Assembly: GCF_000014265.1 (NCBI RefSeq)
Contig: NC_008312.1
Coordinates: 6,630,001 to 6,662,000, forward strand
Reading direction: 5' to 3'
Origin: Trichodesmium erythraeum IMS101
GTDB lineage: Bacteria > Cyanobacteriota > Cyanobacteriia > Cyanobacteriales > Microcoleaceae
DNA length: 32,000 nucleotides
In this document: in pieces, positions 800 to 15,853 of the stretch
Numbering within the stretch: position 1 is the stretch's first letter
Layout of the letters: each line of letters starts with the position of its first letter
The notes under the pieces: generated by a model
Databases searched by the model: none
Seen by the model: the letters and a program-made list of their open reading frames with translations, nothing else
Told to the model about the DNA's origin: nothing
Position numbers and translations under genes: made by a program

Positions 800-3268
800 T
801 TTGGTTTTGGCGATCGCTTTCCTATTCTTTTTTTTTGTTGAATAAATAATCATGTGTATGGGCGTGTTTGGCCTTATATTCATAGTTTATCAATTTTTTT
901 CAAAAGTCGCAACCCCTATACCTCTTTTTTTTTTTGAGCTCCACAGGATGAAAAATCTCGGTACAGTAAAGCAGCGCTTTGAATATTAGTTGATCAGCTC
1001 TATACCTCTTTTTTTTTCGGGGCTCCACAGGATGAAAAGTCTGGGTTCTGGGTAAAGTAAGTCAGCACTTTGAATACTAGCCTACCAGCTCTAATTTATT
1101 GATGATTTTTTGATGAGCTTCTTCTTAGACTTGCTTGCTTTGGTTTTCTTCAAGAGCGATCGCTTTCCTATTCTCTTTTTTGTGTTGAATAAATAATCAT
1201 CCGTATAGGCGTGCTTCCCCTTATATTTATAGTTTATCAATTTTTTTCAGAACTTGCAACTCCTATACCCCTTTTTTTCTTGAGCTCCACAGGATGAAAA
1301 ATCTCGGTACAGTAAGGCAGCACTTTGAATATTGGTTTGTCAGCTCTAATTTATTGATGATTTTTGTGATGAGCTTCTTCTTAGACTTGCTTGTCTTGGT
1401 TTTCTTCAAGAGCGATCGCCTTCCTATTCTCTTTTTTTTTGTTGAATAAATAATCATGAGTATGGGCGTAGTTACCCTTATATTCATAGTTTATCAATTT
1501 TTTTCAAAAGTCGCAACCCCTATACCTCTTTTTTTCGGAGCTCCACAGGATGAAAAGTTTGGGTAAAGTAAAGCAGCGCTTTGAATATTAGTTGCAATTC
1601 CCATACCTCTTTTTTTCGGAGCTTTACAGGATGAAAAGTCTGGGTAAAGTAAGTCAGCACTTTGAATACTAGCCTACCAGCTCTAATTTATTGATGATTT
1701 TTGTGATGAGCTTCTTCTTAGACTTGCTTGCTTTGGTTTTCTTCAAGAGCGATCGCTTTCCTATTCTCTTTTTTTTTGTTGAATAAATAATCATGAGTAT
1801 GGGCGTGTTTACCCTTATATTTATAGTATATCAATTTTTTTCAAAAGTCGCAACCCCTATACCTCTTTTTTCGGAGCTCCACAAGATGAAAAATCTCGGT
1901 ACAGTAAAGCAGCACTTTGAATATTAGTTGATCAGCTCTAATTTATTGATGATTTTTTGATGAGCTTCTTCTTTTTTTTTTCAGAGCTCCGCAGGATGAA
2001 AAATCTCAGTACAGTAAAGCAGTACTTTGAATATTAGTTGCAACTTCTACCCCTCTTTTTTTTCGGAGCCCCACAGGATGAAAAATCTGGGTACAGTAAA
2101 GCAGTACTTTGAATATTAGTTGCAACTTCTAGACCTCTTTTTTTTCCGGAGCCCCACAGGATGAAAAATCTGGGTACAGTAAAGCAGCACTTTGAATATT
2201 AGTTGATCAGCTCTAATTTATTGATGATTTTTGTGATGAGCTTCTTCTTAGACTTGCTTGCCTTGCTTTTCTTCAAGAGCGATCGCTTTCCTGCCCTCTT
2301 TTTTTTGTTGAACAAATAATCATGTGTATGGGCGTGCTTCTCCTTATATTCATAGTCTATCAATTTTTTTCAGAAGTTGCAACTCCTATACCTCTTTTTT
2401 TCTCGAGCTCCACAGGATGAAAAATCTCGGTACAGTAAAGCAGTACTTTGAATGCTAGTGGCAACTTCTAGACCTCTTTTTTTTCAGAGCTCCGCAGGAT
2501 GAAAAATCTCAGTACAGTAAAGCAGCACTTTGAATATTAGTTGATCAGCTCTAATTTATTGATGATTTTTGTGATGAGCTTCTTCTTAGACTTGCTTGTC
2601 TTGGTTTTCTTCAAGAGCGATCGCTTTCCTGTCCTCTTTTTTTTGTTGAATAAATAATCATGCATATAGGCGTGCTTCTCCTTATATTCATAGTCTATCA
2701 ATTTTTTTCAGAAGTCGCAACCCCCATACCTCTTTTTTTTTCAGAGCTCCACAGGATGAAAAATCTGGGTAAAGTAAAAAAAAGCAGCACTTTGAATATT
2801 AGTTGCAACCCTAGACCTCTTTTTTTCGGAGCTCCACAGGATGAAAAATCTCGGTAAAGTAAAAAAAAAAGCAGCACTTTGAATATTAGTTTGTCAGCTC
2901 TAATTTATTGATGATTTTTTTGATGAGCTTTTTCTATGACTTGCTTGCTTTGGTTTTCTTCAAGAGCGATCGCTTTCCTGTCCTCTTTTTTTTGTTGAAT
3001 AAATAATCATGCATATAGGCGTGCTTCTCCTTATATTCATAGTCTATCAATTTTTTTCAGAAGTTGCAACTCCTATACCTCTTTTTTTTTCTCGAGCTCC
3101 ACAGGATGAAAAATCTCGGTAAAGTAAGTCAGCACTTTGAATACTAGCCTACCAGCTCTATGATGATTTTTTGATGAGCTTCTTCTTAGACTTGCTTGCT
3201 TTGGTTTTCTTCAAGAGCGATCGCTTTCCTATTCTCTTTTTTTTGTTGAATAAATAATTATGTGTATG
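800..3268. repeat. Compound tandem array A: 8 long modules (~190 bp, each with one HIP1 GCGATCGC site) interleaved with 14 short modules (~75-85 bp, core GAGCTCCACAGGATGAAAAATCT(C/G)GGTA(C/A)AGTAAAGCAGCACTTTGAATATTAG)
   Basis: HIP1 sites lie at 810, 1156, 1412, 1749, 2279, 2617, 2966 and 3217, with spacings of 251-530 bp. The spacing depends on whether 1, 2 or 4 short modules separate them. Short-module cores start near 948, 1024, 1285, 1541, 1621, 1875, 1985, 2068, 2150, 2406, 2487, 2745, 2830 and 3095. An internally deleted long module lies at about 1931-1980. Confidence 0.95.
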
Positions 3269-3370: not shown

Positions 3371-3460
3371 GAAGAACTGATAATTTTGTCATTTTTTTAC
3401 TTAAGGCTTTTGTCATCTGTCTCAGATTTAAGACATTTGACATTTAGTTCTAAAAAATTT

Positions 3461-3477
3461 TTCCCGCGGAGCGGGAA
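3461..3477 (-). terminator. GC-rich hairpin (TTCCCGC-GGA-GCGGGAA) 40 nt downstream of the vWA-FGE stop; on the minus strand it is followed by AAAATTTTTT
   Basis: Perfect 7-bp stem with a 3-nt loop, read directly. It could be an intrinsic terminator, or alternatively a DGR-type target-site hairpin (see findings). Confidence 0.5.
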
Positions 3478-3484
3478 GTAAAGA

Positions 3485-3515
3485 ACAAGAGGGCAAGAGG
3501 GCAAGAGGGCAAAGG
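3485..3515. repeat. Microsatellite-like repeat, about 3.5 copies of GCAAGAGG, between the stop codon and the hairpin
   Basis: acaagagggcaagagggcaagagggcaaagggc read directly. Confidence 0.85.
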
Positions 3516-3516
3516 G

Positions 3517-6105
3517 CTATTCAAAAGTCCTGGGGGGGAAACTCACAAGACGAAAACCAATATAGAAGTTGTCCGCCTCGTCCGAGATACAGTAGGAGCG
3601 GGACGCAGAGCGACACCTCCAAGGATAGATGATCCAGGAGCCGCCACGAAGTACTTTTATACTATTTTTATTACTATTTTTATTACTGTTGATTCTAGCA
3701 CTTCCATCTGTAGGAGCTCCTACATAATTATTATACCTGTCGTCAGCACACCATTCATAAACGTTTCCGTGCATATCATATAAACCAAAAGCATTTGGTG
3801 GAAATTTACCTACAGGAGTTGTTTGGTTTCTATCTTCTCCTTTTGGCCCGTCGCCGTAAGTATCGTTGCCATTATAGTTAGCTAACTCAGGTGTTATGGT
3901 TTCTCCAAAGTAGAATGGTGTACTCGTTCCTGCACGACAAGCATATTCCCATTCGGCTTCACTGGGTAACCTGTACTTTCTTCCTGTTAGTTTTGATAGT
4001 CTTTTACAAAATTCTACTGCTTGGTTCCAGTTTACCTGCTCCACTGGTCTCTGCCATCTATCTATACTTTCGTATGGTTTAAAATATGATGGCTCTGGGT
4101 CTAGGTCTCGTTCTACTTTTATGTCTGTTCGAGTGGCGATCGCTTTCCACTGTCCTTGAGTTACTGGATATTTGCCCATAAAAAAGGAAGGAACAGTTAC
4201 CTGATGTTGGGGCCGTTCATCATCTTCGCTATCCTCTTCATTTTCAGGAGAACCCATGGTAAAAGTACCACCAGGAATATAAACCATTTCTAGCTCTACC
4301 TTTTCTCGAAGACTTTCTTTAAAGTATCGGGCAGAGTTAATATCTTCCTTAATAATTTCTCCTTTTTGGTTGACTTTGGGAGTTTTATACTCATACTTAA
4401 AAACCTCGATATCTGAGGGAAAAAATATTCCACCTGTTTCTAAGTTTTCAACAAAAGCTGTATAGTCTCCCCCTAGTTCTTTTAAGATATTAAATCCAAT
4501 TTCGGCAAAAGCTGGCACAGTTTCTTCCGTATTTGTAGGTAGTTTTAATAAGGCTACAAATTCTTTCATTGACTTCCCAAAATGCTCTTTTAAATATTGA
4601 GAAACTGCATCAAAAACTTTTTGAGAATCACTGACTGGAGCACTTTTTAATAAGATATTTCTAATTTTTTCGTCTACAAATTTATATTCTACTAATTCTG
4701 AGTTTGTGTCAGGAGTAATTTCTTGGGTTGGCTTTAATAAACCTCCTAAAAATACTTCGGCTGTATGAATAGGTAAAGCTTGTGATAAAAGTTTTGCTTG
4801 AATTATTCTGACTACGGGAAGGCATATCATTGGTGCGGCAGATAATAAGCTTGCTAATTTTCTGGCTATAGGAGAAGCGTTCATTCTAAAACGATGAACT
4901 CTTTTTTCTGGGTTTAATTTTTCAATTTTATTTTCTGGTAAATTTTCAGATTTTAGGTGAAGTTCATTTGGCAAAAGAAAGCCTGATACTAATGCTTCGG
5001 GTTTACCTATTAACATTTGACTCCAAACTTTTGCTAGTTCTGGTTGGAGAGTTAATATGGGAATTTTTATTCCTTGTTCTAATAAGAGATTTCTCCATAA
5101 CAAAAATTCTTTAATAATCAAGTTTTTGTTGCTATTTCCTGGTACTAAATTTTGTAGTTGAACTGAGGATCCTATTCTTAAACCTGTTCTTCTCCACATC
5201 CAGTCTGGTAACATTTGTAAAATTGCTAATGGTTGGTATTCTCCCCATTCTCGTAAGGTTGATAGTATTGAACCGTCATGCCAAAAGGGTGCAATACAAT
5301 CACTTACTATTAATATTAAACGACGACCTGTTCTGTCTATTAATTCTTGAGTTTTAGGGAAAGTTTTTTGTTTTCCTATTCCTGCTGTTAGTAAAATTTT
5401 ATCTGAGTTTTTTTGATTTTTTTGAGTGTATTTTTGTTTTTGAATTGCTGCTAATTCTTGAGGGTATAGTCGGCATATTTTTACTTCTCGAAAGATGCCA
5501 TAATTTTTGAGGAGTTGTTTTAATTCTTTGATGGTGTGTTGCCATAAAGTCATTGATTTATATTTGTCTATGACTAAAACTAGGTCTAACCAAGGTTCGG
5601 GTTCTGATTTTAATATTGGAATACAAATACCGCTTTTGGCTGTTTGGTTTACGGTTTCTATTTCGTCTAAGGTTGTTTTTTTTGGGGAGTTTACTTTTTG
5701 CATTAGAGGTTGTAATGCTTTAGCGAATTCTAATGGTTTTGGTATTGAGGGGGCGTCGGGTATTCTTAAGGGTAAGTTTTTTTGAGTGTCTATTTTTTGT
5801 TTGGTGTTATCTCTAATGTCTAAATAAATAAGGGTTGTTTTTTGGGGAGTTTTAGGATGTGGGGTTGATGTTATTTTTTTAGGGGTATGGGGGGGTGAGT
5901 TGGGATGGATGTTTGGTTTTTTCTTATTTTGATTATCAATGTTTGTTTGGGTTTTGGTTGATTTTTTGGTTGGTATTAGTTCTTGGCGTTTTAATGATAA
6001 CCATAATATTTCGGCTATTTCTCTTCCGGTAAATTCTAGGTCTATACCTAAAGTTTTGATTAGTTTTTCAATTTTTTGTTGTTGATTATTATTGGGAGAT
6101 TTCAT
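3517..6105 (-). CDS. Multidomain protein: SAV_2336-like N-terminal helix, P/T/K-rich linker, vWA-like domain with a degenerate MIDAS motif, helical middle region, and C-terminal formylglycine-generating-enzyme (FGE-sulfatase/CLec) domain
   Basis: The N-terminus has REIAEILWLSLKRQ, the ELADALWLA-type motif of vWA partners of MoxR ATPases. The vWA-like core has LDLVLVIDKYKSMTLW, then RRLILIVSDCIAPFWHDGSI, then PLAILQMLPDWMWRRTGL. FGE hallmarks are MVYIPGGTFTMGSP, YRLPSEAEWEYACRAG, GLYDMHGNVYEWCAD and LRGGSW...GFRLV. The MIDAS reads D-K-Y-K-S instead of DxSxS. Confidence 0.85.
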   Translation of the reverse strand: MKSPNNNQQQKIEKLIKTLGIDLEFTGREIAEILWLSLKRQELIPTKKSTKTQTNIDNQNKKKPNIHPNSPPHTPKKITSTPHPKTPQKTTLIYLDIRDNTKQKIDTQKNLPLRIPDAPSIPKPLEFAKALQPLMQKVNSPKKTTLDEIETVNQTAKSGICIPILKSEPEPWLDLVLVIDKYKSMTLWQHTIKELKQLLKNYGIFREVKICRLYPQELAAIQKQKYTQKNQKNSDKILLTAGIGKQKTFPKTQELIDRTGRRLILIVSDCIAPFWHDGSILSTLREWGEYQPLAILQMLPDWMWRRTGLRIGSSVQLQNLVPGNSNKNLIIKEFLLWRNLLLEQGIKIPILTLQPELAKVWSQMLIGKPEALVSGFLLPNELHLKSENLPENKIEKLNPEKRVHRFRMNASPIARKLASLLSAAPMICLPVVRIIQAKLLSQALPIHTAEVFLGGLLKPTQEITPDTNSELVEYKFVDEKIRNILLKSAPVSDSQKVFDAVSQYLKEHFGKSMKEFVALLKLPTNTEETVPAFAEIGFNILKELGGDYTAFVENLETGGIFFPSDIEVFKYEYKTPKVNQKGEIIKEDINSARYFKESLREKVELEMVYIPGGTFTMGSPENEEDSEDDERPQHQVTVPSFFMGKYPVTQGQWKAIATRTDIKVERDLDPEPSYFKPYESIDRWQRPVEQVNWNQAVEFCKRLSKLTGRKYRLPSEAEWEYACRAGTSTPFYFGETITPELANYNGNDTYGDGPKGEDRNQTTPVGKFPPNAFGLYDMHGNVYEWCADDRYNNYVGAPTDGSARINSNKNSNKNSIKVLRGGSWIIYPWRCRSASRSYCISDEADNFYIGFRLVSFPPRTFE

Positions 6106-6343
6106 AAGAAAGAATAAGGGGTAGGATAATTAAATAGTGGAATAATAGTGAAATAATTTTAAGTTTGGTTTAGGTGAGCAGTTTGTTTGGTTTCAGGAGT
6201 ATTTAAGGTAAAAGTAAGAATATTAATATTGCTGTTTAATGTTTATTTTTTTAGTTTTGTTTTGATGGCAATTTTAAGTTTGTTACTATTACTATTATTT
6301 TTATTATTATATGATTTTAGTTATAGTGGCAAATATCATAAAT

Positions 6344-6481
6344 AATGAAAATATTTTAATATACTTTTATGGCTATAAAGTAATAATTTAAATGAATCAA
6401 TATTCTAGTTCTAATGAAAATCCTTTAATATACTTTTATGGCTATAAAGTAATAATTGAAATGAATCAATATTCTAGTTCT
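6344..6481 (+). repeat. Tandem duplication of 2 x 69 bp (66/69 identical) covering the mtnB 5' leader and start codon
   Basis: Copy 1 is 6344-6412 and copy 2 is 6413-6481. Each contains ATGAATCAATATTCTAGTTCT. The codon before the ATG is TAA in copy 1 and GAA in copy 2, so both ATGs (6392 and 6461) are in frame. Confidence 0.9.
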
Positions 6482-7164: not shown

Positions 7165-10100
7165 TCGGCTAATGGTGCTTAACAAAGGAGGCCAAGGGTA
7201 AAAATAACTGTAGGTTGGGTTGAAGCACGAAACCCAACAGACAGTGGTTGGCAGATAATAACTTTAGGTTGGCTAATGGTTTTATGAAGTAGGTGTGATG
7301 TTTCTGTTGGTTTTGATTTTTTTTGCCTAACTTAGGTTTTATGGTTTTTTGGTGGAATAATTTTTGGGCGGAATAATTTTTTGGTGGAATAACTGTAGGT
7401 TTGGTTGAGGTACAAAACCCAGGAAAAGCTGGTTGGCAGATAATAACTTTAGGTTGGCTAATGGTTTTATGAAGTAGGTGTGATGTTTCTGTTGGGTTTG
7501 ATTTTTTTTTGCCTAACTTAGGTTTTATGGTTTTTTGGTGGAATAATTTTTTAGCGGAATAATTTTTTGGTGGAATAACTGTAGGTTTGGTTGAGGTACA
7601 AAACCCAGGAAAAGCTGGTTGGCAGATAATAGCTTTAGGTTGGCTAATGGTTTTATGAAGTAGGTGTGATGTTTCTGTTGGGTTTGATTTTTTTTTGCCT
7701 AACCTAGGTTTTATGATTTTTTGGTGGAATAATTTTTTGGTTGAATAATTTTTTGGTGGAATAACTGTAGGTTTGCTTCAGGTACAAAACCCAAGACAAG
7801 GTGGTTGGCAGATAATAACTTTAGGTTGGCTAATGGTTTTATGAAATAGATGTGATGTTTCTGTTGGTTTTGATTTTTTTTGCCTAACCTAGGTTTTATG
7901 ATTTTTTGGTGGAATAATTTTTTGGTGGAATAATTTTTTGGTGGAATAATTTTTTGGTGGAATAACTGTAGGTTTGCTTCAGGTACAAAACCCAAGACAA
8001 GGTGGTTGGCAGATAATAGCTTTAGGTTGGCTAATGGTTTTATGAAATAGATGTGATGTTTCTGTTGGGTTTGATTTTTTTTTGCCTAACTTAGGTTTTA
8101 TGATTTTTTGGTGGAATAATTTTTGGGCGGAATAATTTTTTGGTGGAATAACTGTAGGTTTGGCTGAGGTACAAAACCCAAGACAAGGTGGTTGGCAGAT
8201 AATAACTTTAGGTTGGCTAATGGTTTTATGAAATAGATGTGATGTTTCTGTTGGTTTTGATTTTTTTTGCCTAACCTAGGTTTTATGATTTTTTGGTGGA
8301 ATAATTTTTGGGCGGAATAATTTTTTGGTGGAATAACTGTAGGTTTGGTTGAGGTACAAAACCCAGGAAAAGCTGGTTGGCAGATAATAGCTTTAGGTTG
8401 GCTAATGGTTTTATGAAGTAGGTGTGATACTTCTGTTGGTTTTGATTTTTTTTGCCTAACCTAGGTTTTATGATTTTTTGGTGGAATAATTTTTGGGCGG
8501 AATAATTTTTTGGTGGAATAACTGTAGGTTTGGTTGAGGTACAAAACCCAAGACAAGGTGGTTGGCAGATAATAACTTTAGGTTGGCTAATGGTTTTATG
8601 AAGTAGGTGTGATGCTTCTGTTGGTTTTGATTTTTTTTGCCTAACCTAGGTTTTATGATTTTTTGGTGGAATAATTTTTGGGCGGAATAATTTTGTGGAA
8701 TAACTGTAGGTTTGGTTGAGGTACAAAACCCAAGACAAGGTGGTTGGCAGATAATAACTTTAGGTTGGCTAATGGTTTTATGAAGTAGGTGTGATGCTTC
8801 TGTTGGTTTTGATTTTTTTTGCCTAACCTAGGTTTTATGATTTTTTGGTGGAATAATTTTTGGGCGGAATAATTTTGTGGAATAACTGTAGGTTTGGTTG
8901 AGGTACAAAACCCAAGACAAGGTGGTTGGCAGATAATAACTTTAGGTTGGCTAATAGTTTTATGAAATAGGTGTGATGTTTCTGTTGGGTTTGATTTTTT
9001 TTTGCCTAACCTAGGTTTTATGATTTTTTGGTGGAATAATTTTTTAGCGGAATAATTTTTTGGTGGAATAATTTTTTTGTGGAATAACTGTAGGTTTGGT
9101 TGAGGTATAAAACCCAGGAAAAGCTGGTTGGCAGATAATAGCTTTAGGTTGGCTAATGGTTTTATGAAGTAGGTGTGATACTTCTGTTGGTTTTGATTTT
9201 TTTTGCCTAACCTAGGTTTTATGATTTTTTGGTGGAATAATTTTTTAGCGGAATAATTTTTTAGCGGAATAATTTTTGGGTGGAATAACTGTAGGTTTGG
9301 CTGAGGTACAAAACCCAGAAAAAGCTGGTTGGCAGATAATAACTTTAGGTTGGCTAATAGTTTTATGAAATAGATGTGATGCTTCTGTTGGTTTTGATTT
9401 TTTTTGCCTAACTTAGGTTTTATGATTTTTTGGTGGAATAATTTTTTGGTGGAATAATTTTTTGGTGGAATAACTGTAGGTTTGGCTGAGGTACAAAACC
9501 CAAGACAAGGTGGTTGGCAGATAATAGCTTTAGGTTGGCTAATGGTTTTATGAAATAGATGTGATGTTTCTGTTGGTTTTGATTTTTTTTGCCTAACCTA
9601 GGTTTTATAATTTTTTGGTGGAATAATTTTTTGGTGGAATAATTTTTTGGTGGAATAACTGTAGGTTTGCTTCAGGTACAAAACCCAAGACAAGGTGGTT
9701 GGCAGATAATAGCTTTAGGTTGGCTAATGGTTTTATGAAATAGATGTGATGTTTCTGTTGGGTTTGATTTTTTTTTGCCTAACTTAGGTTTTATGATTTT
9801 TTGGTGGAATAATTTTTGGGCGGAATAATTTTTTGGTGGAATAACTGTAGGTTTGGCTGAGGTACAAAACCCAAGACAAGGTGGTTGGCAGATAATAACT
9901 TTAGGTTGGCTAATGGTTTTATGAAATAGATGTGATGTTTCTGTTGGGTTTGATTTTTTTTTGCCTAACCTAGGTTTTATGATTTTTTAGCGGAATAATT
10001 TTTTGGTGGAATAATTTTTTGGTGGAATAACTGTAGGTTTGCTTCAGGTACAAAACCCAAGACAAGGTGGTTGGCAGATAATAACTTTAGGTTGGCTAAT

Positions 10101-10531
10101 GGTTTTATGAAATAGATGTGATGTTTCTGTTGGTTTTGATTTTTTTTGCCTAACCTAGGTTTTATGATTTTTTGGTGGAATAATTTTTTGGCGGAATAAT
10201 TTTGTGGAATAACTGTAGGTTTGGTTGAGGTACAAAACCCAGAAAAATCTGGTTGGCAGATAATAACTTTACGTTGGCTAATGGTTTTATGAAATAGGTG
10301 TGATGCTTCTGTTGGGTTTGATTTTTTTGCCTAACCTAGGTGTTATGATTTTTTGGTGGAATAATTTTTTGGTGGAATAATTTTTTGGTGGAATAACTGT
10401 AGGTTTGCTTCAGGTACAAAACCCAGGAAAAGATGGTTGGCAGATAATAACTTTAGGTTGGCTAATGGTTTTATGAAATAGATGTGATGCTTCTGTTGGT
10501 TTTGATTTTTTTTGCCTAACTTAGGTTTTAT
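7165..10531. repeat. Tandem array B: about 18 units of 182-203 bp filling the whole gap between the convergent 3' ends of mtnB and the MoxR-like gene; each unit contains 3-4 copies of a nested 16-nt sub-repeat GGTGGAATAATTTTTT
   Basis: The landmark CTGTAGG recurs at 7208, 7393, 7579, 7765, 7966, 8152, 8338, 8522, 8704, 8886, 9089, 9289, 9474, 9659, 9845, 10031, 10213 and 10398. The ~200-bp units carry a fourth 16-mer. A two-unit block starting at 7966 appears identical by eye for more than 300 nt to one starting at 9659 (offset 1693). Confidence 0.95.
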
Positions 10532-10563
10532 AAGTTTTTAGAGATTTATAAATTTTCAAAATT

Positions 10564-11658
10564 TTATTGACTTAAATTTTTAAACAAAATTTCCTTAAGA
10601 GACTCAATATTATTATCATCTTGAGGACTATTTGACTGAGTTAATATATGAATTGTATTGAGTAACTGATCTGTTGCTCTGTCAAATGCTTCACCTTCTT
10701 CTTGTTTGGGCAAAAATTCTTTAATTAATTCCCCAATATAGTCCTGATTTTGATTATACAATTCATCTCCGAAATGAGCTTGAACAATACTTTTTAAAGC
10801 TTCCTCTTTTGGGTCTGGCATTGTCACTCTTAAACAACGTCGTTTAAATGCGGGAGGAAAATCTCTTTCTCCATTACTTGTCATTACAATAATAGGAAAA
10901 GCTGCACATTTTACTTTTCCAGTTTTGAGGGTTACTTTGTCTTCATCTTGTGTCCAAACTGTAAATTGTTGTGGAGATTCTTGTGAAAATTCTTGTGAAG
11001 ATTCTGCTGATTTTCTAGATTTACTTCTACGCATTAATTCGGGAATAATAAATTCTCCTTCCTCAAAAATATTGAGTAAATCATTGGGTAAATTAATATC
11101 ACTTTTATCAACTTCATCTATTAATAAAACCCGAGGAAATTGAGAAGGTAAAAATGCTGTACCTAAGGCACCTAATGTAATATATTCTCCAATGTGTTGT
11201 TCTTTTTTTAATTGAGCATCTTGTAACCTGGCAATAGCATCATAACGATATAGTCCATCTTGTAAAGCAGACCTTGCTGTAATTGACCAAGATAATACAG
11301 TTCCCAAACCTAATTCATAAGCAATGGCATAAGCAAGGGATGTTTTGCCAGAACCTGGTTTTCCAGTTATTAATAAAGGTCTTCTCAAATAAATTGCTGC
11401 GTTAACACTGTTAATTACATCTTTTGCTTCTTTTTGTTGTTGAGGAAGTCGAAAGTTTTTACCTCTTTCTAATCCTTTTTTTTGTTGTTTTGCTAATTTT
11501 CTTAATTCTAACCATCTACTGTCAATTCCTTTTTCATTTACTTTAATATCTGTTGTTTCCCCAAATTTACGCCAAGGAGGAGGCTCTATATTTAAGAGTT
11601 TTTTTTCAACTCCTTTTTCTTTAATTCCATTCCCTTGAAATAAATGCCAATGGCTCAT
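10564..11658 (-). CDS. MoxR-like AAA+ ATPase (the type that partners vWA proteins)
   Basis: Walker A is GKPGSGKT (codons at 11341-11364, verified on the DNA). Walker B is VLLIDEVD. The sensor region has FKRRCLRV. The N-terminus has a PPPWRKF motif, and LRRPLLITG precedes the P-loop, as I recall for MoxR ATPases of vWA-MoxR conflict systems. Confidence 0.85.
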   Translation of the reverse strand: MSHWHLFQGNGIKEKGVEKKLLNIEPPPWRKFGETTDIKVNEKGIDSRWLELRKLAKQQKKGLERGKNFRLPQQQKEAKDVINSVNAAIYLRRPLLITGKPGSGKTSLAYAIAYELGLGTVLSWSITARSALQDGLYRYDAIARLQDAQLKKEQHIGEYITLGALGTAFLPSQFPRVLLIDEVDKSDINLPNDLLNIFEEGEFIIPELMRRSKSRKSAESSQEFSQESPQQFTVWTQDEDKVTLKTGKVKCAAFPIIVMTSNGERDFPPAFKRRCLRVTMPDPKEEALKSIVQAHFGDELYNQNQDYIGELIKEFLPKQEEGEAFDRATDQLLNTIHILTQSNSPQDDNNIESLKEILFKNLSQ

Positions 11659-11687: not shown

Positions 11688-13400
11688 TTACCCAAAAGTG
11701 TAGGCATCGTCTTCTTCAAATCTTGATAAAATTCGGTAAGGGTTATCACATAAAAATCCTAAGCCATATCCTAGTTTTTCTTCATTGTTATCATCAATAT
11801 AAGCTTCTTCTCGTAATTTTTTTATGGAATTTAAAAGACTGGTTAAACTTTTAATATCTTGCAGTGTTAAGATTTGCAGAAAGTTTGTTTTTAACTTTTC
11901 AGGAGTATATTTAAGGTTAATACTCCATAATGCAATGGGAATTCCAGCAATAATAATTGCTTTCATAATCTCTTTGATTTCTTGAATATTTTTTAAAGGT
12001 GAAATAATGTTTATTCCTATTTTTTGATTGTCTCTTAAACGTGCTTCTAGTATTTTCCATTTTTCATAGCGACTATGATGTTCAAATTTATTTTCAATTA
12101 TTTCTGAAGTTAATGGTGACTGGGATATAAAAAAATCATTTACTTCTTGCCAGTTATTTTCTAATCTCAGTAAATATTCACGATTATTTTGATAAGTTTC
12201 AAATCTTTCCAAAATTCTAAAAGTTAATGGGTGCTCACAACAAAGCTTTCTACTTTCTCCTGCAAATAGTGTTGAATTTTTTATTGGTAAAGGGATAGCT
12301 TCCATGGGCTTTAAAAAATATTTGATAGGCAAGAATAATTCAATAATGATTGACGGCTCAAACCTAATATTACTATTTCGAGAACGATAATGTTGTAATT
12401 TCCAATAACTTTTCTGAATAAATTTTTTAAGACAGTTTCCTATTTTTTTGAAGTTTTTTGCACATCTAACAGCTTGTGTTTGCTCCTGAATATAAATAGG
12501 TTTTTGTTTCAGAATTTTCTTACTATGATCTTTTTCTAGGACTAACTCACCTTGCAATAGTAAATCAGAACCAGCATCTTCTAAACTTATTAATAAGTAA
12601 GGCTGAATTTTTTCTGTGGGCAAGAATTTTGATAGATTTTTATTTTTTTCTTGAGTCTTTAATAGGGTATCTTTTTTCTGGAGTCGAGCAGTAAATTTTG
12701 AAAGCCATATTTTTAAATTAGATCTACTTTCCTTTTGTTTTTGAGTCTCTAATTGAATATTTAGTTGATGAGAAACTTCTGAAACCCATGTTTTAAATTC
12801 ATTGGGAATGGTAGATTTTGTTGGAAGATAATTAGGGTTTGATAATATTGTCTGAAGTGATATATCTATTTGTTCATATGGCATTCTGCTTAAATAATCA
12901 ACAAATTCTAAAACTACGGGAATTTCTCTTGAACTTTGCTCTCGTTTTTTAATTAAATTATCTTTTAAAGTATCTTGAGTTTCTTCAGCTTCTAAGGATT
13001 TTAAGTTAATTAATCTTGGATCAACTTCCACAATTTCTTTTGGTTGAAAGGTTTCCTGAAAAGCTAAATCTAAATAAGTTGGATGAATCTGAGAGAGTAA
13101 TTTATATAACTTTTCCCATTGTTTTTCGGTAATGTAGAAAAGTTGATAAGTTATGTTTTTAATTGGCAAATTATGGGGATTTTGATCATTAGCTCCCCAA
13201 ACTAAGTCTAATAGTTTATTTTGACTTTCAGCCCATTCAATTAATGCCAGAATAACATTGTCAAGAGGGTCTCGTTTAACAATCTCCTCAAGATTTTTTT
13301 CTAGATTTAATCTAAACATTATTCTAAGTTGATCATAGCTTCGATAGCCATCTTCTAAAGCTTTAAATAGATATTTCCTTTCAGATTTAGACAAGTTCAT
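11688..13400 (-). CDS. 570-aa protein: N-terminal effector-associated-domain (EAD)-like helical module (residues ~1-80) plus a large K/E/L/I-rich domain without a P-loop; candidate VMAP-like (vWA-MoxR-associated) scaffold
   Basis: Residues 1-77 align without gaps to the N-terminus of the protease at 14783-15853, with 35/77 identical by my own count. No GxxxxGK[ST] motif is present. The gene lies directly upstream of the MoxR-like gene. The VMAP assignment rests on context only. Confidence 0.6.
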   Translation of the reverse strand: MNLSKSERKYLFKALEDGYRSYDQLRIMFRLNLEKNLEEIVKRDPLDNVILALIEWAESQNKLLDLVWGANDQNPHNLPIKNITYQLFYITEKQWEKLYKLLSQIHPTYLDLAFQETFQPKEIVEVDPRLINLKSLEAEETQDTLKDNLIKKREQSSREIPVVLEFVDYLSRMPYEQIDISLQTILSNPNYLPTKSTIPNEFKTWVSEVSHQLNIQLETQKQKESRSNLKIWLSKFTARLQKKDTLLKTQEKNKNLSKFLPTEKIQPYLLISLEDAGSDLLLQGELVLEKDHSKKILKQKPIYIQEQTQAVRCAKNFKKIGNCLKKFIQKSYWKLQHYRSRNSNIRFEPSIIIELFLPIKYFLKPMEAIPLPIKNSTLFAGESRKLCCEHPLTFRILERFETYQNNREYLLRLENNWQEVNDFFISQSPLTSEIIENKFEHHSRYEKWKILEARLRDNQKIGINIISPLKNIQEIKEIMKAIIIAGIPIALWSINLKYTPEKLKTNFLQILTLQDIKSLTSLLNSIKKLREEAYIDDNNEEKLGYGLGFLCDNPYRILSRFEEDDAYTFG

Positions 13401-14782: not shown

Positions 14783-15853
14783 TTAGTTAAGTTGAATTGA
14801 TTTTTGTTCTAAATCATGATGAATAGAACTAAACAAAATACCTTCACGAATAGTGCCAAAATATTTAGAACGTTGAGCATGATGTAAAGCTACTAATTCT
14901 CCATTTTCATTAAAACAGGGTGAACCACTGGAGCCTCCTGCTGTTCTATTAATATACTGAACTAATCCACTATGAGGATAAACTCCTGTAATTCCATCAC
15001 AAGTAATAGAAAGTTTCATTGATTCTCCATTGGGATGTTGTAGAATATTAATACTATCAGCTTCAGAGAGGAAAATATGAGGCTGCCATTTAGCAGGTTT
15101 AATCTTTGTATCTTCTGAATCTAAAGCTTGACTAAAAGTTTTTTCAAGCTGTAGTAAAATATAATCAAGTTCTCCTACAGGACTAGAGGAAATAATAGGT
15201 TTTTCAGAATCTAATAAAAAGGATTTTGATGTGCTTTCTCTACTGTTATTTAAACTAAAACAGCCAAAACTAATACGAATATTCTTGGCATTTAACTCAA
15301 GATTATTATTGTTATTTTGTTTAAGCACATGATAATTAGTTAAAACATATTTTGAAGCAATTAATACCCCTGTTGCTGTAATATTTAGATTTGGTACATC
15401 AAGCCGACAAACTGATTTAGCTTGCTCAATAATTTTCTGCAAAAATCCTACATCATACCAATCTGGTTGTTTTTTAAATAATCCTTGTAATTCAATTTGG
15501 TCAGTTTTTCCATGCCAATCAATATTCGGACCAAAATCTCTAATGGGAGTCAAATCATAATCTAAAATTGCTCTTTTCTGAAAGTCTTTTGAGATTGTGT
15601 GAAAAAATTTTTTTAACTTTTGATTATCAGGATTTTGTTCATAAGCTCCTATAATTAAAGACTTTAATTTTCCCCGAGCTTCTGCTGAGTCAATTAAATT
15701 AAAAACGACTGTTTCTAAATCACCTTTCCCGGCAAATCTTTCTAAATTTTCTTCTAACTTAAATCTAACCATTCTTTGAAGCTTGCCATAGTCTCTATAA
15801 GAATCTAATAAAGCTTCAAATAGTTCTTCAGTTTCAAAACCTGATAATGTCAT
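14783..15853 (-). CDS. EAD-like N-terminal domain fused to a trypsin-like (S1/Trypsin_2-type) serine protease
   Basis: The catalytic triad is recognisable: H175 (LTNYHVL), D230 (GELDYILLQL) and S309 (TAGGSSGSPCF; Ser codon at 14927-14929, verified on the DNA). The N-terminal 77 residues are paralogous to the N-terminus of the 570-aa protein. Confidence 0.85.
   Translation of the reverse strand: MTLSGFETEELFEALLDSYRDYGKLQRMVRFKLEENLERFAGKGDLETVVFNLIDSAEARGKLKSLIIGAYEQNPDNQKLKKFFHTISKDFQKRAILDYDLTPIRDFGPNIDWHGKTDQIELQGLFKKQPDWYDVGFLQKIIEQAKSVCRLDVPNLNITATGVLIASKYVLTNYHVLKQNNNNNLELNAKNIRISFGCFSLNNSRESTSKSFLLDSEKPIISSSPVGELDYILLQLEKTFSQALDSEDTKIKPAKWQPHIFLSEADSINILQHPNGESMKLSITCDGITGVYPHSGLVQYINRTAGGSSGSPCFNENGELVALHHAQRSKYFGTIREGILFSSIHHDLEQKSIQLN

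What the first reader, a model, noticed from the sequence alone, without database searches (positions are those of the whole stretch)
3550..3648. The 3' end of the FGE domain looks like a diversity-generating-retroelement variable region, with no TR or RT in the window
The segment encoding RGGSWIIYPWRCRSASRSYCISDEADNFYIGFR is compositionally abnormal. In 3571-3650 I count 49/80 G+C. Only 9/80 positions are adenine on the coding strand. The adjacent 60 nt (3651-3710) has 15/60 G+C. DGR variable regions in cyanobacteria classically sit at this position in FGE/CLec-fold proteins, between RGGSW and GFR. They are adenine-depleted relative to their template repeat. Many codons here are NNC/NNT, as expected from mutated AAC/AAT codons. 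A GC-rich hairpin (3461-3477) lies downstream. DGR targets are reported to need a downstream hairpin/cruciform (Guo et al. 2011, from memory), although the spacing here is larger than in the phage paradigm. From memory, Trichodesmium was reported to have one transcribed template repeat that targets at least 12 dispersed genes (Pfreundt et al. 2014), so a remote target is plausible.
Basis: partly seen in the sequence, partly recalled or inferred. Interest (0 to 1): 0.7.

Follow-up and report, generated by a model that had tools for sequence, protein, structure and literature searches.

The report
Known remote DGR target in Trichodesmium
The odd GC-rich, adenine-poor tail of this gene is a real variable region rewritten by a diversity-generating retroelement encoded elsewhere in the Trichodesmium erythraeum genome, but this gene is already catalogued as such a target.

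Summary

- **Source.** The window is Trichodesmium erythraeum IMS101. The ORF 3517..6105(-) is Tery_4304 (ABG53299.1), 100% identical.
- **Composition.** Its last ~115 coding bases (3530..3644) are the most G+C-rich 80-nt stretch in the 32-kb window. They are also the most A-poor stretch in the gene.
- **Template repeat.** I recovered a TR next to a reverse transcriptase in a related Trichodesmium genome (locus L006). The window differs from it at 14 of 115 positions, and all 14 are TR adenines (P = 2e-10).
- **Population data.** Five alleles of the gene differ by 12-17% in this segment and by 1.3-2.5% elsewhere. Of 29 polymorphic sites, 26 are TR adenines (P = 3e-19).
- **RT and TR.** Neither lies in the window.
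- **Prior work.** Vallota-Eastman et al. 2020 (Table S1) list ABG53299.1 as a remote variable protein. Pfreundt et al. 2014 described one TR with 12 targets.
- **Added context.** The target appears to be the sensor of a vWA-MoxR (VMAP) ternary conflict system encoded in the window. The downstream hairpin looks like an intrinsic terminator.

The parts
3517..6105 (-). Tery_4304 (ABG53299.1), 862 aa. It has a SAV_2336 N-terminal domain (aa 27-511), a linker and a C-terminal FGE-sulfatase/CLec domain (aa 606-854).
   Evidence: 100% identity to P0125. Pfam hit. NCBIfam NF041121, 405 bits.
3530..3644 (-). Variable region: 115 nt homologous to the template repeat, from GCGGCTCCTGG to CCCCCCCAG.
   Evidence: Alignment to the L006 TR gives 14 mismatches, all at TR adenines, P = 2.2e-10. 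The VR has 15 A against 29 in the TR.
3561..3633 (-). Mutable core, from the first to the last TR adenine seen substituted. All TR adenines lie at codon positions 1 or 2.
   Evidence: Of 29 sites polymorphic among five alleles, 26 are TR adenines.
3530..3560 (-). Invariant 3' block shared by the TR and all the VRs compared (TTGGTTTTCGTCTTGTGAGTTTCCCCCCCAG). Probably part of the homing (IMH-like) region.
   Evidence: Pfreundt 2014 describes a 35-bp 3' homology region.
3517..3529 (-). GACTTTTGAATAG (includes the stop codon). It is shared, with 0-3 substitutions, by the VRs compared and diverges from the TR, which reads CACTCTTCTGTGC. This fits an IMH versus IMH* distinction.
3486..3517 (.). Tandem octamer, CAAGAGGG x 4.1 on the + strand (CCCTCTTG on the coding strand), directly after the stop codon. 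It is also present 3' of the paralogous VRs.
3451..3477 (-). GC hairpin TTCCCGC-TCC-GCGGGAA followed by AAATTTTTTA. It has the form of an intrinsic terminator.
10564..11658 (-). AAA+ ATPase, 364 aa. Presumed to be the MoxR-like component of the ternary system.
   Evidence: Pfam AAA and AAA_5 hits. The same gene sits next to the orthologues in L001 and L008.
11688..13400 (-). EAD1 + VMAP-C protein, 570 aa.
   Evidence: PF20028, 58 bits, and PF19955, 49 bits.
14783..15853 (-). EAD1 + trypsin-like peptidase, 356 aa. Candidate effector.
   Evidence: PF19955, 65 bits, and PF13365, 66 bits.

Best explanation
Window 3530-3644(-) is the variable region of a remote target gene (Tery_4304) of a Trichodesmium diversity-generating retroelement (DGR).

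**Mechanism.** A template repeat encoded elsewhere, next to a DGR reverse transcriptase, is transcribed. It is then reverse-transcribed with random misincorporation opposite adenines. The cDNA replaces the VR by mutagenic homing. This rewrites about 17-18 codons (AAC, AAT, AGG, TAT, GAC, GAG, ACG, ATT) in the ligand-binding face of a C-terminal CLec/FGE-fold domain. Adenine loss in the VR explains the G+C-rich, A-poor composition.

**What is shown.**
- The adenine-specific TR/VR relation, tested against the TR of a related strain.
- Hypervariation confined to TR-adenine sites among natural alleles.
- An intact match at all 86 non-adenine positions.

**What comes from the literature.**
- The IMS101 TR lies at nTSS 2632789r, beside the pseudogenised RT Tery_1728/1729.
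- The VRs did not change in culture.
- ABG53299.1 is listed as a remote variable protein.

**What is inferred.** The protein is the diversified sensor of the adjacent VMAP (vWA-MoxR-associated) ternary conflict system. In strain IMS101 the allele is currently frozen.
For: - Identity to Tery_4304.
- DGR cassette in L006: RT (RVT_1), then the TR, then a CLec-only variable protein.
- Window VR against that TR: 14 of 14 mismatches at adenines, P = 2.2e-10.
- All 29 TR adenines are at codon positions 1 or 2.
- Five alleles differ by 12-17% in the VR and by 1.3-2.5% in the rest of the gene. 26 of 29 polymorphic VR sites are TR adenines, P = 2.7e-19.
- Paralogous VRs in L003, L004 and L006 share the scaffold and the 3' flank.
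- The domain matches the DGR variable protein TvpA (PDB 2y3c) at E = 4e-20.
- Pfreundt 2014, PMC4143802.
- Vallota-Eastman 2020, PMC7517822, Table S1, lists ABG53299.1 as a remote VP.
- VMAP-C, EAD1-trypsin and AAA genes lie in the window. Doré 2024, PMC10907252, proposes this role.
Against: - The TR used is from Trichodesmium sp. ALOHA_ZT_67, not IMS101. IMS101 DNA outside the window could not be retrieved.
- According to Pfreundt 2014, the RT beside the TR is a pseudogene in IMS101 and resequencing of the VRs showed no change. Present-day activity in this strain is therefore unlikely, unless the second RT (Tery_1035) acts in trans.
- The hairpin is about 52 nt beyond the end of TR homology, unlike the phage BPP-1 paradigm. 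It resembles a terminator.
- Three polymorphic VR sites among the orthologues are not at adenines.
Confidence: 0.95

Rival explanations
1. The segment is a relic. It was once written by a DGR but is no longer a competent target, and its present diversity among strains is only inherited.
For: Pfreundt 2014 reports that the RT is pseudogenised in IMS101 and that resequencing showed no VR change. They also judged most of the five VRs that carry non-adenine mutations to be no longer targets. Two environmental contigs (P0130, P0134) carry the same VR peptide as IMS101.
Against: The window VR matches the TR at all 86 non-adenine positions, including the 31-nt 3' block. Four other natural alleles each carry a different adenine-site pattern in otherwise 97.5-98.7% identical genes. 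That indicates rewriting more recent than the divergence of the strains.
Confidence: 0.25
2. The variation comes from ordinary diversifying selection or from gene conversion among the many FGE-domain paralogues, with no retroelement involved.
For: T. erythraeum has many CLec/FGE paralogues. Diversity is also somewhat raised just upstream of the VR (3645-3700) and at 4200-4320, where no TR homology exists.
Against: Substitutions are confined to TR adenines (26 of 29 sites, P = 2.7e-19). They fall only at codon positions 1 and 2, with third positions invariant. A matching A-rich template sits beside an RT gene. Neither selection nor gene conversion predicts this.
Confidence: 0.03

Closest known systems
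T. erythraeum IMS101 DGR with remote targets (Pfreundt et al. 2014, Sci Rep 4:6187; Vallota-Eastman et al. 2020, BMC Genomics 21:664)
   Same: It is the same organism and the same gene. ABG53299.1 is listed as a remote variable protein. I count 18 adenine-bearing codons and 29 TR adenines, of which 26 are seen to vary. That fits the published figures of 17 codons and 26 adenines.
   Different: Nothing essential differs. The two papers appear to tie the remote targets to different RTs. Pfreundt ties them to the TR beside the pseudogenised Tery_1728/1729. Table S1 of Vallota-Eastman puts them in the row of the intact Tery_1035. I could not resolve this.
Bordetella phage BPP-1 DGR (Mtd / TR / bRT / Avd)
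   Same: Both show adenine-specific TR-to-VR mutagenesis and a VR at the 3' end of a CLec-fold gene. Both have a conserved G/C-containing 3' block. In both, the sequence just past the block differs between VR and TR (IMH versus IMH*).
   Different: The target here is megabases from the RT and TR and is one of about 12 targets. The fold is the FGE subtype of CLec. The hairpin lies about 52 nt downstream rather than adjacent, and it looks like a terminator. The host is cellular, not a phage.
DGR-diversified sensors of VMAP ternary conflict systems (Kaur et al. 2020; Doré et al. 2024, PNAS 121:e2316469121)
   Same: A CLec-bearing target sits beside an AAA+ ATPase, a VMAP-C/EAD1 protein and an EAD1-trypsin effector.
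   Different: In the systems described by Doré et al., the DGR is usually at the same locus. Here the ternary system is served in trans. The vWA fold of the N-terminal domain has only weak support (Foldseek top hit NorD, E = 2.7e-4).
Treponema denticola TvpA (PDB 2y3c)
   Same: It is an FGE-type CLec domain diversified by a DGR. The sequence match is E = 4e-20.
   Different: TvpA is a surface lipoprotein encoded next to its DGR. Tery_4304 has a long N-terminal domain of the SAV_2336 type.

Membership tests
Diversity-generating retroelement target (VR) | A TR/VR pair whose differences fall almost only at TR adenines. | tested here: met
   14 of 14 mismatches are at adenines over 115 nt, P = 2.2e-10, against the TR of a related strain.
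Diversity-generating retroelement target (VR) | A DGR-type reverse transcriptase adjacent to the TR. | tested here: met
   In L006 an RVT_1 gene ends at 827 and the TR lies at about 944-1065. None is in the window. For IMS101 the RT is known from the literature only.
Diversity-generating retroelement target (VR) | The VR lies at the 3' end of the ORF, in a CLec/FGE-fold domain. | tested here: met
   Pfam FGE-sulfatase covers aa 606-854 of 862. There is a match to TvpA, 2y3c.
Diversity-generating retroelement target (VR) | Hypervariability among natural alleles, confined to TR-adenine sites. | tested here: met
   The VR differs by 12-17% against 1.3-2.5% elsewhere. 26 of 29 polymorphic sites are TR adenines, P = 2.7e-19.
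Diversity-generating retroelement target (VR) | An IMH-type 3' element and a downstream hairpin or cruciform needed for homing. | tested here: inconclusive
   The conserved 3' block and a VR-specific sequence that diverges from the TR are present. The hairpin is present but about 52 nt away and is terminator-like. Function was not tested.
Diversity-generating retroelement target (VR) | An accessory Avd protein in the cassette. | not tested
   The L006 contig starts inside the RT gene. A second Trichodesmium-type cassette (L007) does carry bAvd.
VMAP ternary conflict system | A VMAP-C domain protein. | tested here: met
   PF20028 scores 58 bits against a cut-off of 27, at 11688-13400(-).
VMAP ternary conflict system | A MoxR-type AAA+ ATPase. 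| tested here: inconclusive
   There are only generic AAA and AAA_5 hits (33 and 30 bits) at 10564-11658(-). No MoxR-specific model matched.
VMAP ternary conflict system | A vWA-domain partner. | tested here: inconclusive
   The AlphaFold2 model of aa 100-520 has pLDDT 77. Its best PDB match is the NorQD complex, chain G (E = 2.7e-4, TM 0.24/0.38). Integrin beta chains appear lower in the list.

The most novel reading that the evidence does not exclude
The stretch 3' of every VR examined may be a portable target-recognition module. It consists of a VR-specific sequence, a C/T-rich octamer repeat and a GC hairpin with a T-run. The TR lacks it, yet it is conserved among paralogous targets and, in altered form, among targets of a second TR family. 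Such a module could let one TR home in trans into about a dozen dispersed genes, including the sensor of a VMAP ternary defence system. In IMS101 the intact second RT (Tery_1035) might then serve the TR that sits beside the dead RT.
Probability: 0.25. Interest if true: 0.45.

Novelty: already known. Interest (0 to 1): 0.2.

Why it matters
The result confirms that composition alone (an A-poor, G+C-rich NNC/NNT codon run between RGGSW and GFR) can flag a remote DGR target that has no RT or TR nearby. That is useful for scanning. Biologically it adds little, because the gene is already listed as a remote variable protein of the T. erythraeum DGR.

The modest additions are:
- direct allele-level evidence for this particular gene;
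- its placement beside a VMAP ternary conflict system;
- the conserved 3' module shared by the targets.

Tried and rejected
- **Exact-protein look-up of the window ORF.** It found nothing, although the identical Tery_4304 is in the protein collection. IMS101 DNA seems to be unavailable.
- **Genome-collection scan.** I used TGTCGCTCTGCGNNCCGCNNCNNCNNTNTCTCGG and found only two paralogous VRs (L003, L004) and no TR.
- **Metagenome scan.** The predicted TR core TGTCGCTCTGCGAACCGCAACAAC hit only an unrelated G+C-rich DGR (L005). The prediction itself proved correct once L006 was found.
- **Protein search with the last 130 aa.** It returned only fragments of 227 aa or less. A 267-aa query was needed to reach the CLec-only variable proteins next to the RT.
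- **Pfreundt 2014 gene list.** The 12 genes are listed only in Fig. 6C, and no supplement is held. The inclusion of Tery_4304 in those 12 is therefore inferred: 10 remote VPs plus 2 local ones in Vallota-Eastman Table S1.
- **Search for a hairpin immediately after the VR end.** Folding 3440-3565 gave only the terminator-like hairpin, and the overall z-score was -1.07.
- **P0002/L002 as an orthologue targeted by another TR.** Synteny is not conserved, so I call it only a 73%-identical homologue.

Full report
**Observation**

On the coding (-) strand, 3571-3650 has 49/80 G+C and 9/80 A, and 3651-3710 has 15/60 G+C. The ORF 3517..6105(-) encodes 862 aa that end in ...VLRGGSWIIYPWRCRSASRSYCISDEADNFYIGFRLVSFPPRTFE. 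Pfam places an FGE-sulfatase domain at aa 606-854.

The anomaly is not chance. 49/80 is the highest G+C of any 80-nt stretch in the whole 32-kb window. 9 A per 80 nt is the minimum in a CDS that averages 31.6 (sd 6.6). A low-stringency BLAST and an "A-tolerant" ungapped scan found no TR-like copy in the window. None of the ORFs of 110 aa or more has a reverse-transcriptase domain.

**Identity**

The protein is 100% identical to ABG53299.1 / WP_011613625.1, Tery_4304 of Trichodesmium erythraeum IMS101. IMS101 DNA outside the window could not be retrieved. The exact-protein look-up and a genome scan that should have hit the window's own sequence both missed it.

**Finding the template**

I aligned the window with a 95%-identical orthologue (L001) and two paralogous VRs (L003, L004). 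From these I predicted a TR with A at every variable site. My genome scan pattern wrongly fixed a T in one codon that is AAC in the TR, so it missed the TR. A metagenome scan with the predicted core hit only an unrelated DGR.

A protein search with the 267-aa FGE domain then recovered CLec-only variable proteins. Two of their contigs are DGR cassettes.
- **L006** (Trichodesmium sp. ALOHA_ZT_67): RT, then the TR, then a 292-aa FGE protein.
- **L007** (a marine metagenome contig): VP, bAvd, RT, TR, then a 295-aa FGE protein.

The L006 TR, at about 944-1065, reads GCGGCTCCTGG AAC AAC TAT CCT AGG AGG TGT CGC TCT GCG AAC CGC AAC AAC TAT AAC TCG GAC GAG ACG GAC AAC AAC AAT ATT GGT TTT CGT CTT GTG AGT TTC CCC CCC AG. 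It contains exactly the core I had predicted.

**The decisive tests**

*Window against the TR.* Over the 115 nt of homology (window 3530-3644), the window differs from the TR at 14 positions, and all 14 are TR adenines. The TR has 29 A in 115 nt, so the hypergeometric P is 2.2e-10. All 86 non-adenine positions are identical. All 29 TR adenines lie at codon positions 1 or 2. The VR retains 15 A against 29 in the TR. The orthologue and the three paralogous VRs show the same pattern: 13-18 adenine-site mismatches and 1-4 others.

*Natural alleles.* I fetched DNA for four natural alleles of the same gene (L001, L008, L009, L010). Pairwise differences are 12-17% inside the VR and 1.3-2.5% in the other ~2,475 nt. 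Of 29 polymorphic VR sites, 26 are TR adenines (P = 2.7e-19).

*Amino acids.* The residues seen at each position are those reachable by changing only the adenines:

| TR codon | Reachable codons | Residues observed |
|---|---|---|
| AGG | NGG | R, W, G |
| TAT | TNT | Y, C, S |
| GAC | GNC | D, V, A |
| ATT | NTT | I, V, F |

**Literature**

Pfreundt et al. 2014 (PMC4143802) describe a 265-nt TR transcript from nTSS 2632789r, downstream of the RT Tery_1728/1729. They report 12 VR genes, 17 rewritable codons and 26 adenines, and a 35-bp 3' homology region. In IMS101 the RT is pseudogenised, and resequencing of the VRs showed no change. Their gene list is only in a figure that I could not read.

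Vallota-Eastman et al. 2020 (PMC7517822), Table S1, explicitly list ABG53299.1 among ten remote variable proteins of IMS101. Ten remote plus the two local proteins (ABG50990.1, ABG50993.1) gives Pfreundt's twelve. That equivalence is my inference.

The finding is therefore already known. One loose end remains. Table S1 places the remote VPs in the row of the intact RT Tery_1035. The cassette layout I recovered (RT, then TR, then a CLec-only VP) fits Pfreundt's Tery_1729/1728, TR, Tery_1727 arrangement.

**Anatomy of the target site**

- The mutable core is 3561-3633.
- A 31-nt block, 3530-3560, is identical in the TR and in the window VR. Two of the VRs compared (the L001 orthologue and the L006 variable protein) each differ from it at one position.
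- The next 13 nt (GACTTTTGAATAG, which includes the stop codon) are shared, with 0-3 substitutions, by the VRs compared but read CACTCTTCTGTGC in the TR. This is what an IMH versus IMH* distinction would look like.
- Next come 4.1 copies of the octamer CCCTCTTG (3486-3517).
- Last is the hairpin TTCCCGC-TCC-GCGGGAA plus a T-run (3451-3477).

The octamer tract and a GC hairpin with a T-run also follow the paralogous VRs. In altered form they also follow the VRs of the second TR family in L007.

The hairpin is real. However, it lies about 52 nt beyond the end of TR homology and has the form of an intrinsic terminator. It is therefore weak evidence for a DGR cruciform. The local fold is not unusual overall (z = -1.07).

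**What the target is**

The N-terminal 485 aa match NCBIfam SAV_2336_NTERM at 405 bits. An AlphaFold2 model of aa 100-520 has pLDDT 77. Its best PDB match is chain G of the NorQD complex, a MoxR-type AAA+ ATPase (NorQ) with its vWA-domain partner (NorD). That match is weak (E = 2.7e-4, TM 0.24/0.38).

On the same strand, further along in window coordinates, lie three related genes:
- an AAA+ ATPase (10564-11658);
- an EAD1 + VMAP-C protein (11688-13400);
- an EAD1 + trypsin-like peptidase (14783-15853).

The ATPase and the VMAP-C gene also flank the orthologues in L001 and L008.

This is the architecture of a VMAP ternary conflict system. Doré et al. 2024 (PMC10907252) propose that the DGR-diversified vWA-CLec protein is its antigen sensor. 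I adopt that as the likely function, as an inference. The FGE domain also matches the DGR variable protein TvpA (2y3c, E = 4e-20).

**Verdict**

Novelty: already known. In IMS101 the allele is probably frozen, because the cognate RT is dead according to Pfreundt 2014. The site is still an intact target, and the gene is clearly being rewritten in natural populations.

Noticed in passing
window 7203-10539: A 3.3-kb tandem array (period 185 nt, 17.8 copies, 91% matches) lies between the aldolase_II gene and the AAA+ ATPase. The orthologous loci L001 and L008 have only about 230-600 nt there, so it is an IMS101-specific expansion inside the ternary-system locus.
   Followed up: partly
window 1000-3262: Dense tandem and dispersed repeats (periods of about 82, 256 and 338 nt) lie immediately downstream of Tery_4304.
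   Followed up: no
window 3486-3517; L001, L003, L004, L006 3' of their VRs: An octamer repeat, CCCTCTTG on the coding strand, follows the stop codon. It is conserved, with variable copy number, behind paralogous VRs but is absent from the TR.
   Followed up: partly
window 3645-3700: Diversity among orthologues is raised just 5' of the TR homology, in the NSNKNSIKVL loop (which includes a 12-nt repeat at 3655-3687). The changes are not adenine-specific, so this TR does not explain them.
   Followed up: partly
L002 3925-4076 and L007 4046-4153: A 73%-identical homologue with the same architecture (P0002) carries a VR that matches a different TR family, the L007 cassette (bAvd, RT, TR). 13 of 15 mismatches are at adenines. 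Two TR families therefore serve SAV_2336-FGE proteins in Trichodesmium.
   Followed up: partly
window 6343-6481: A 69-nt direct duplication (2.0 copies, 95% matches) spans the start of the aldolase_II ORF and repeats the MNQYSSS N-terminus.
   Followed up: no
proteins P0130 and P0134 (cluster of P0001): Two environmental contigs encode the IMS101 VR peptide and N-terminus but a different FGE core (aa ~619-790). They could be recombinants between paralogues or assembly chimeras.
   Followed up: no
L005 1497-1600: An unrelated G+C-rich metagenomic DGR has a TR that shares the 24-nt core TGTCGCTCTGCGAACCGCAACAAC with the Trichodesmium TR. This shows how stereotyped the TRs of FGE-type targets are.
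   Followed up: no
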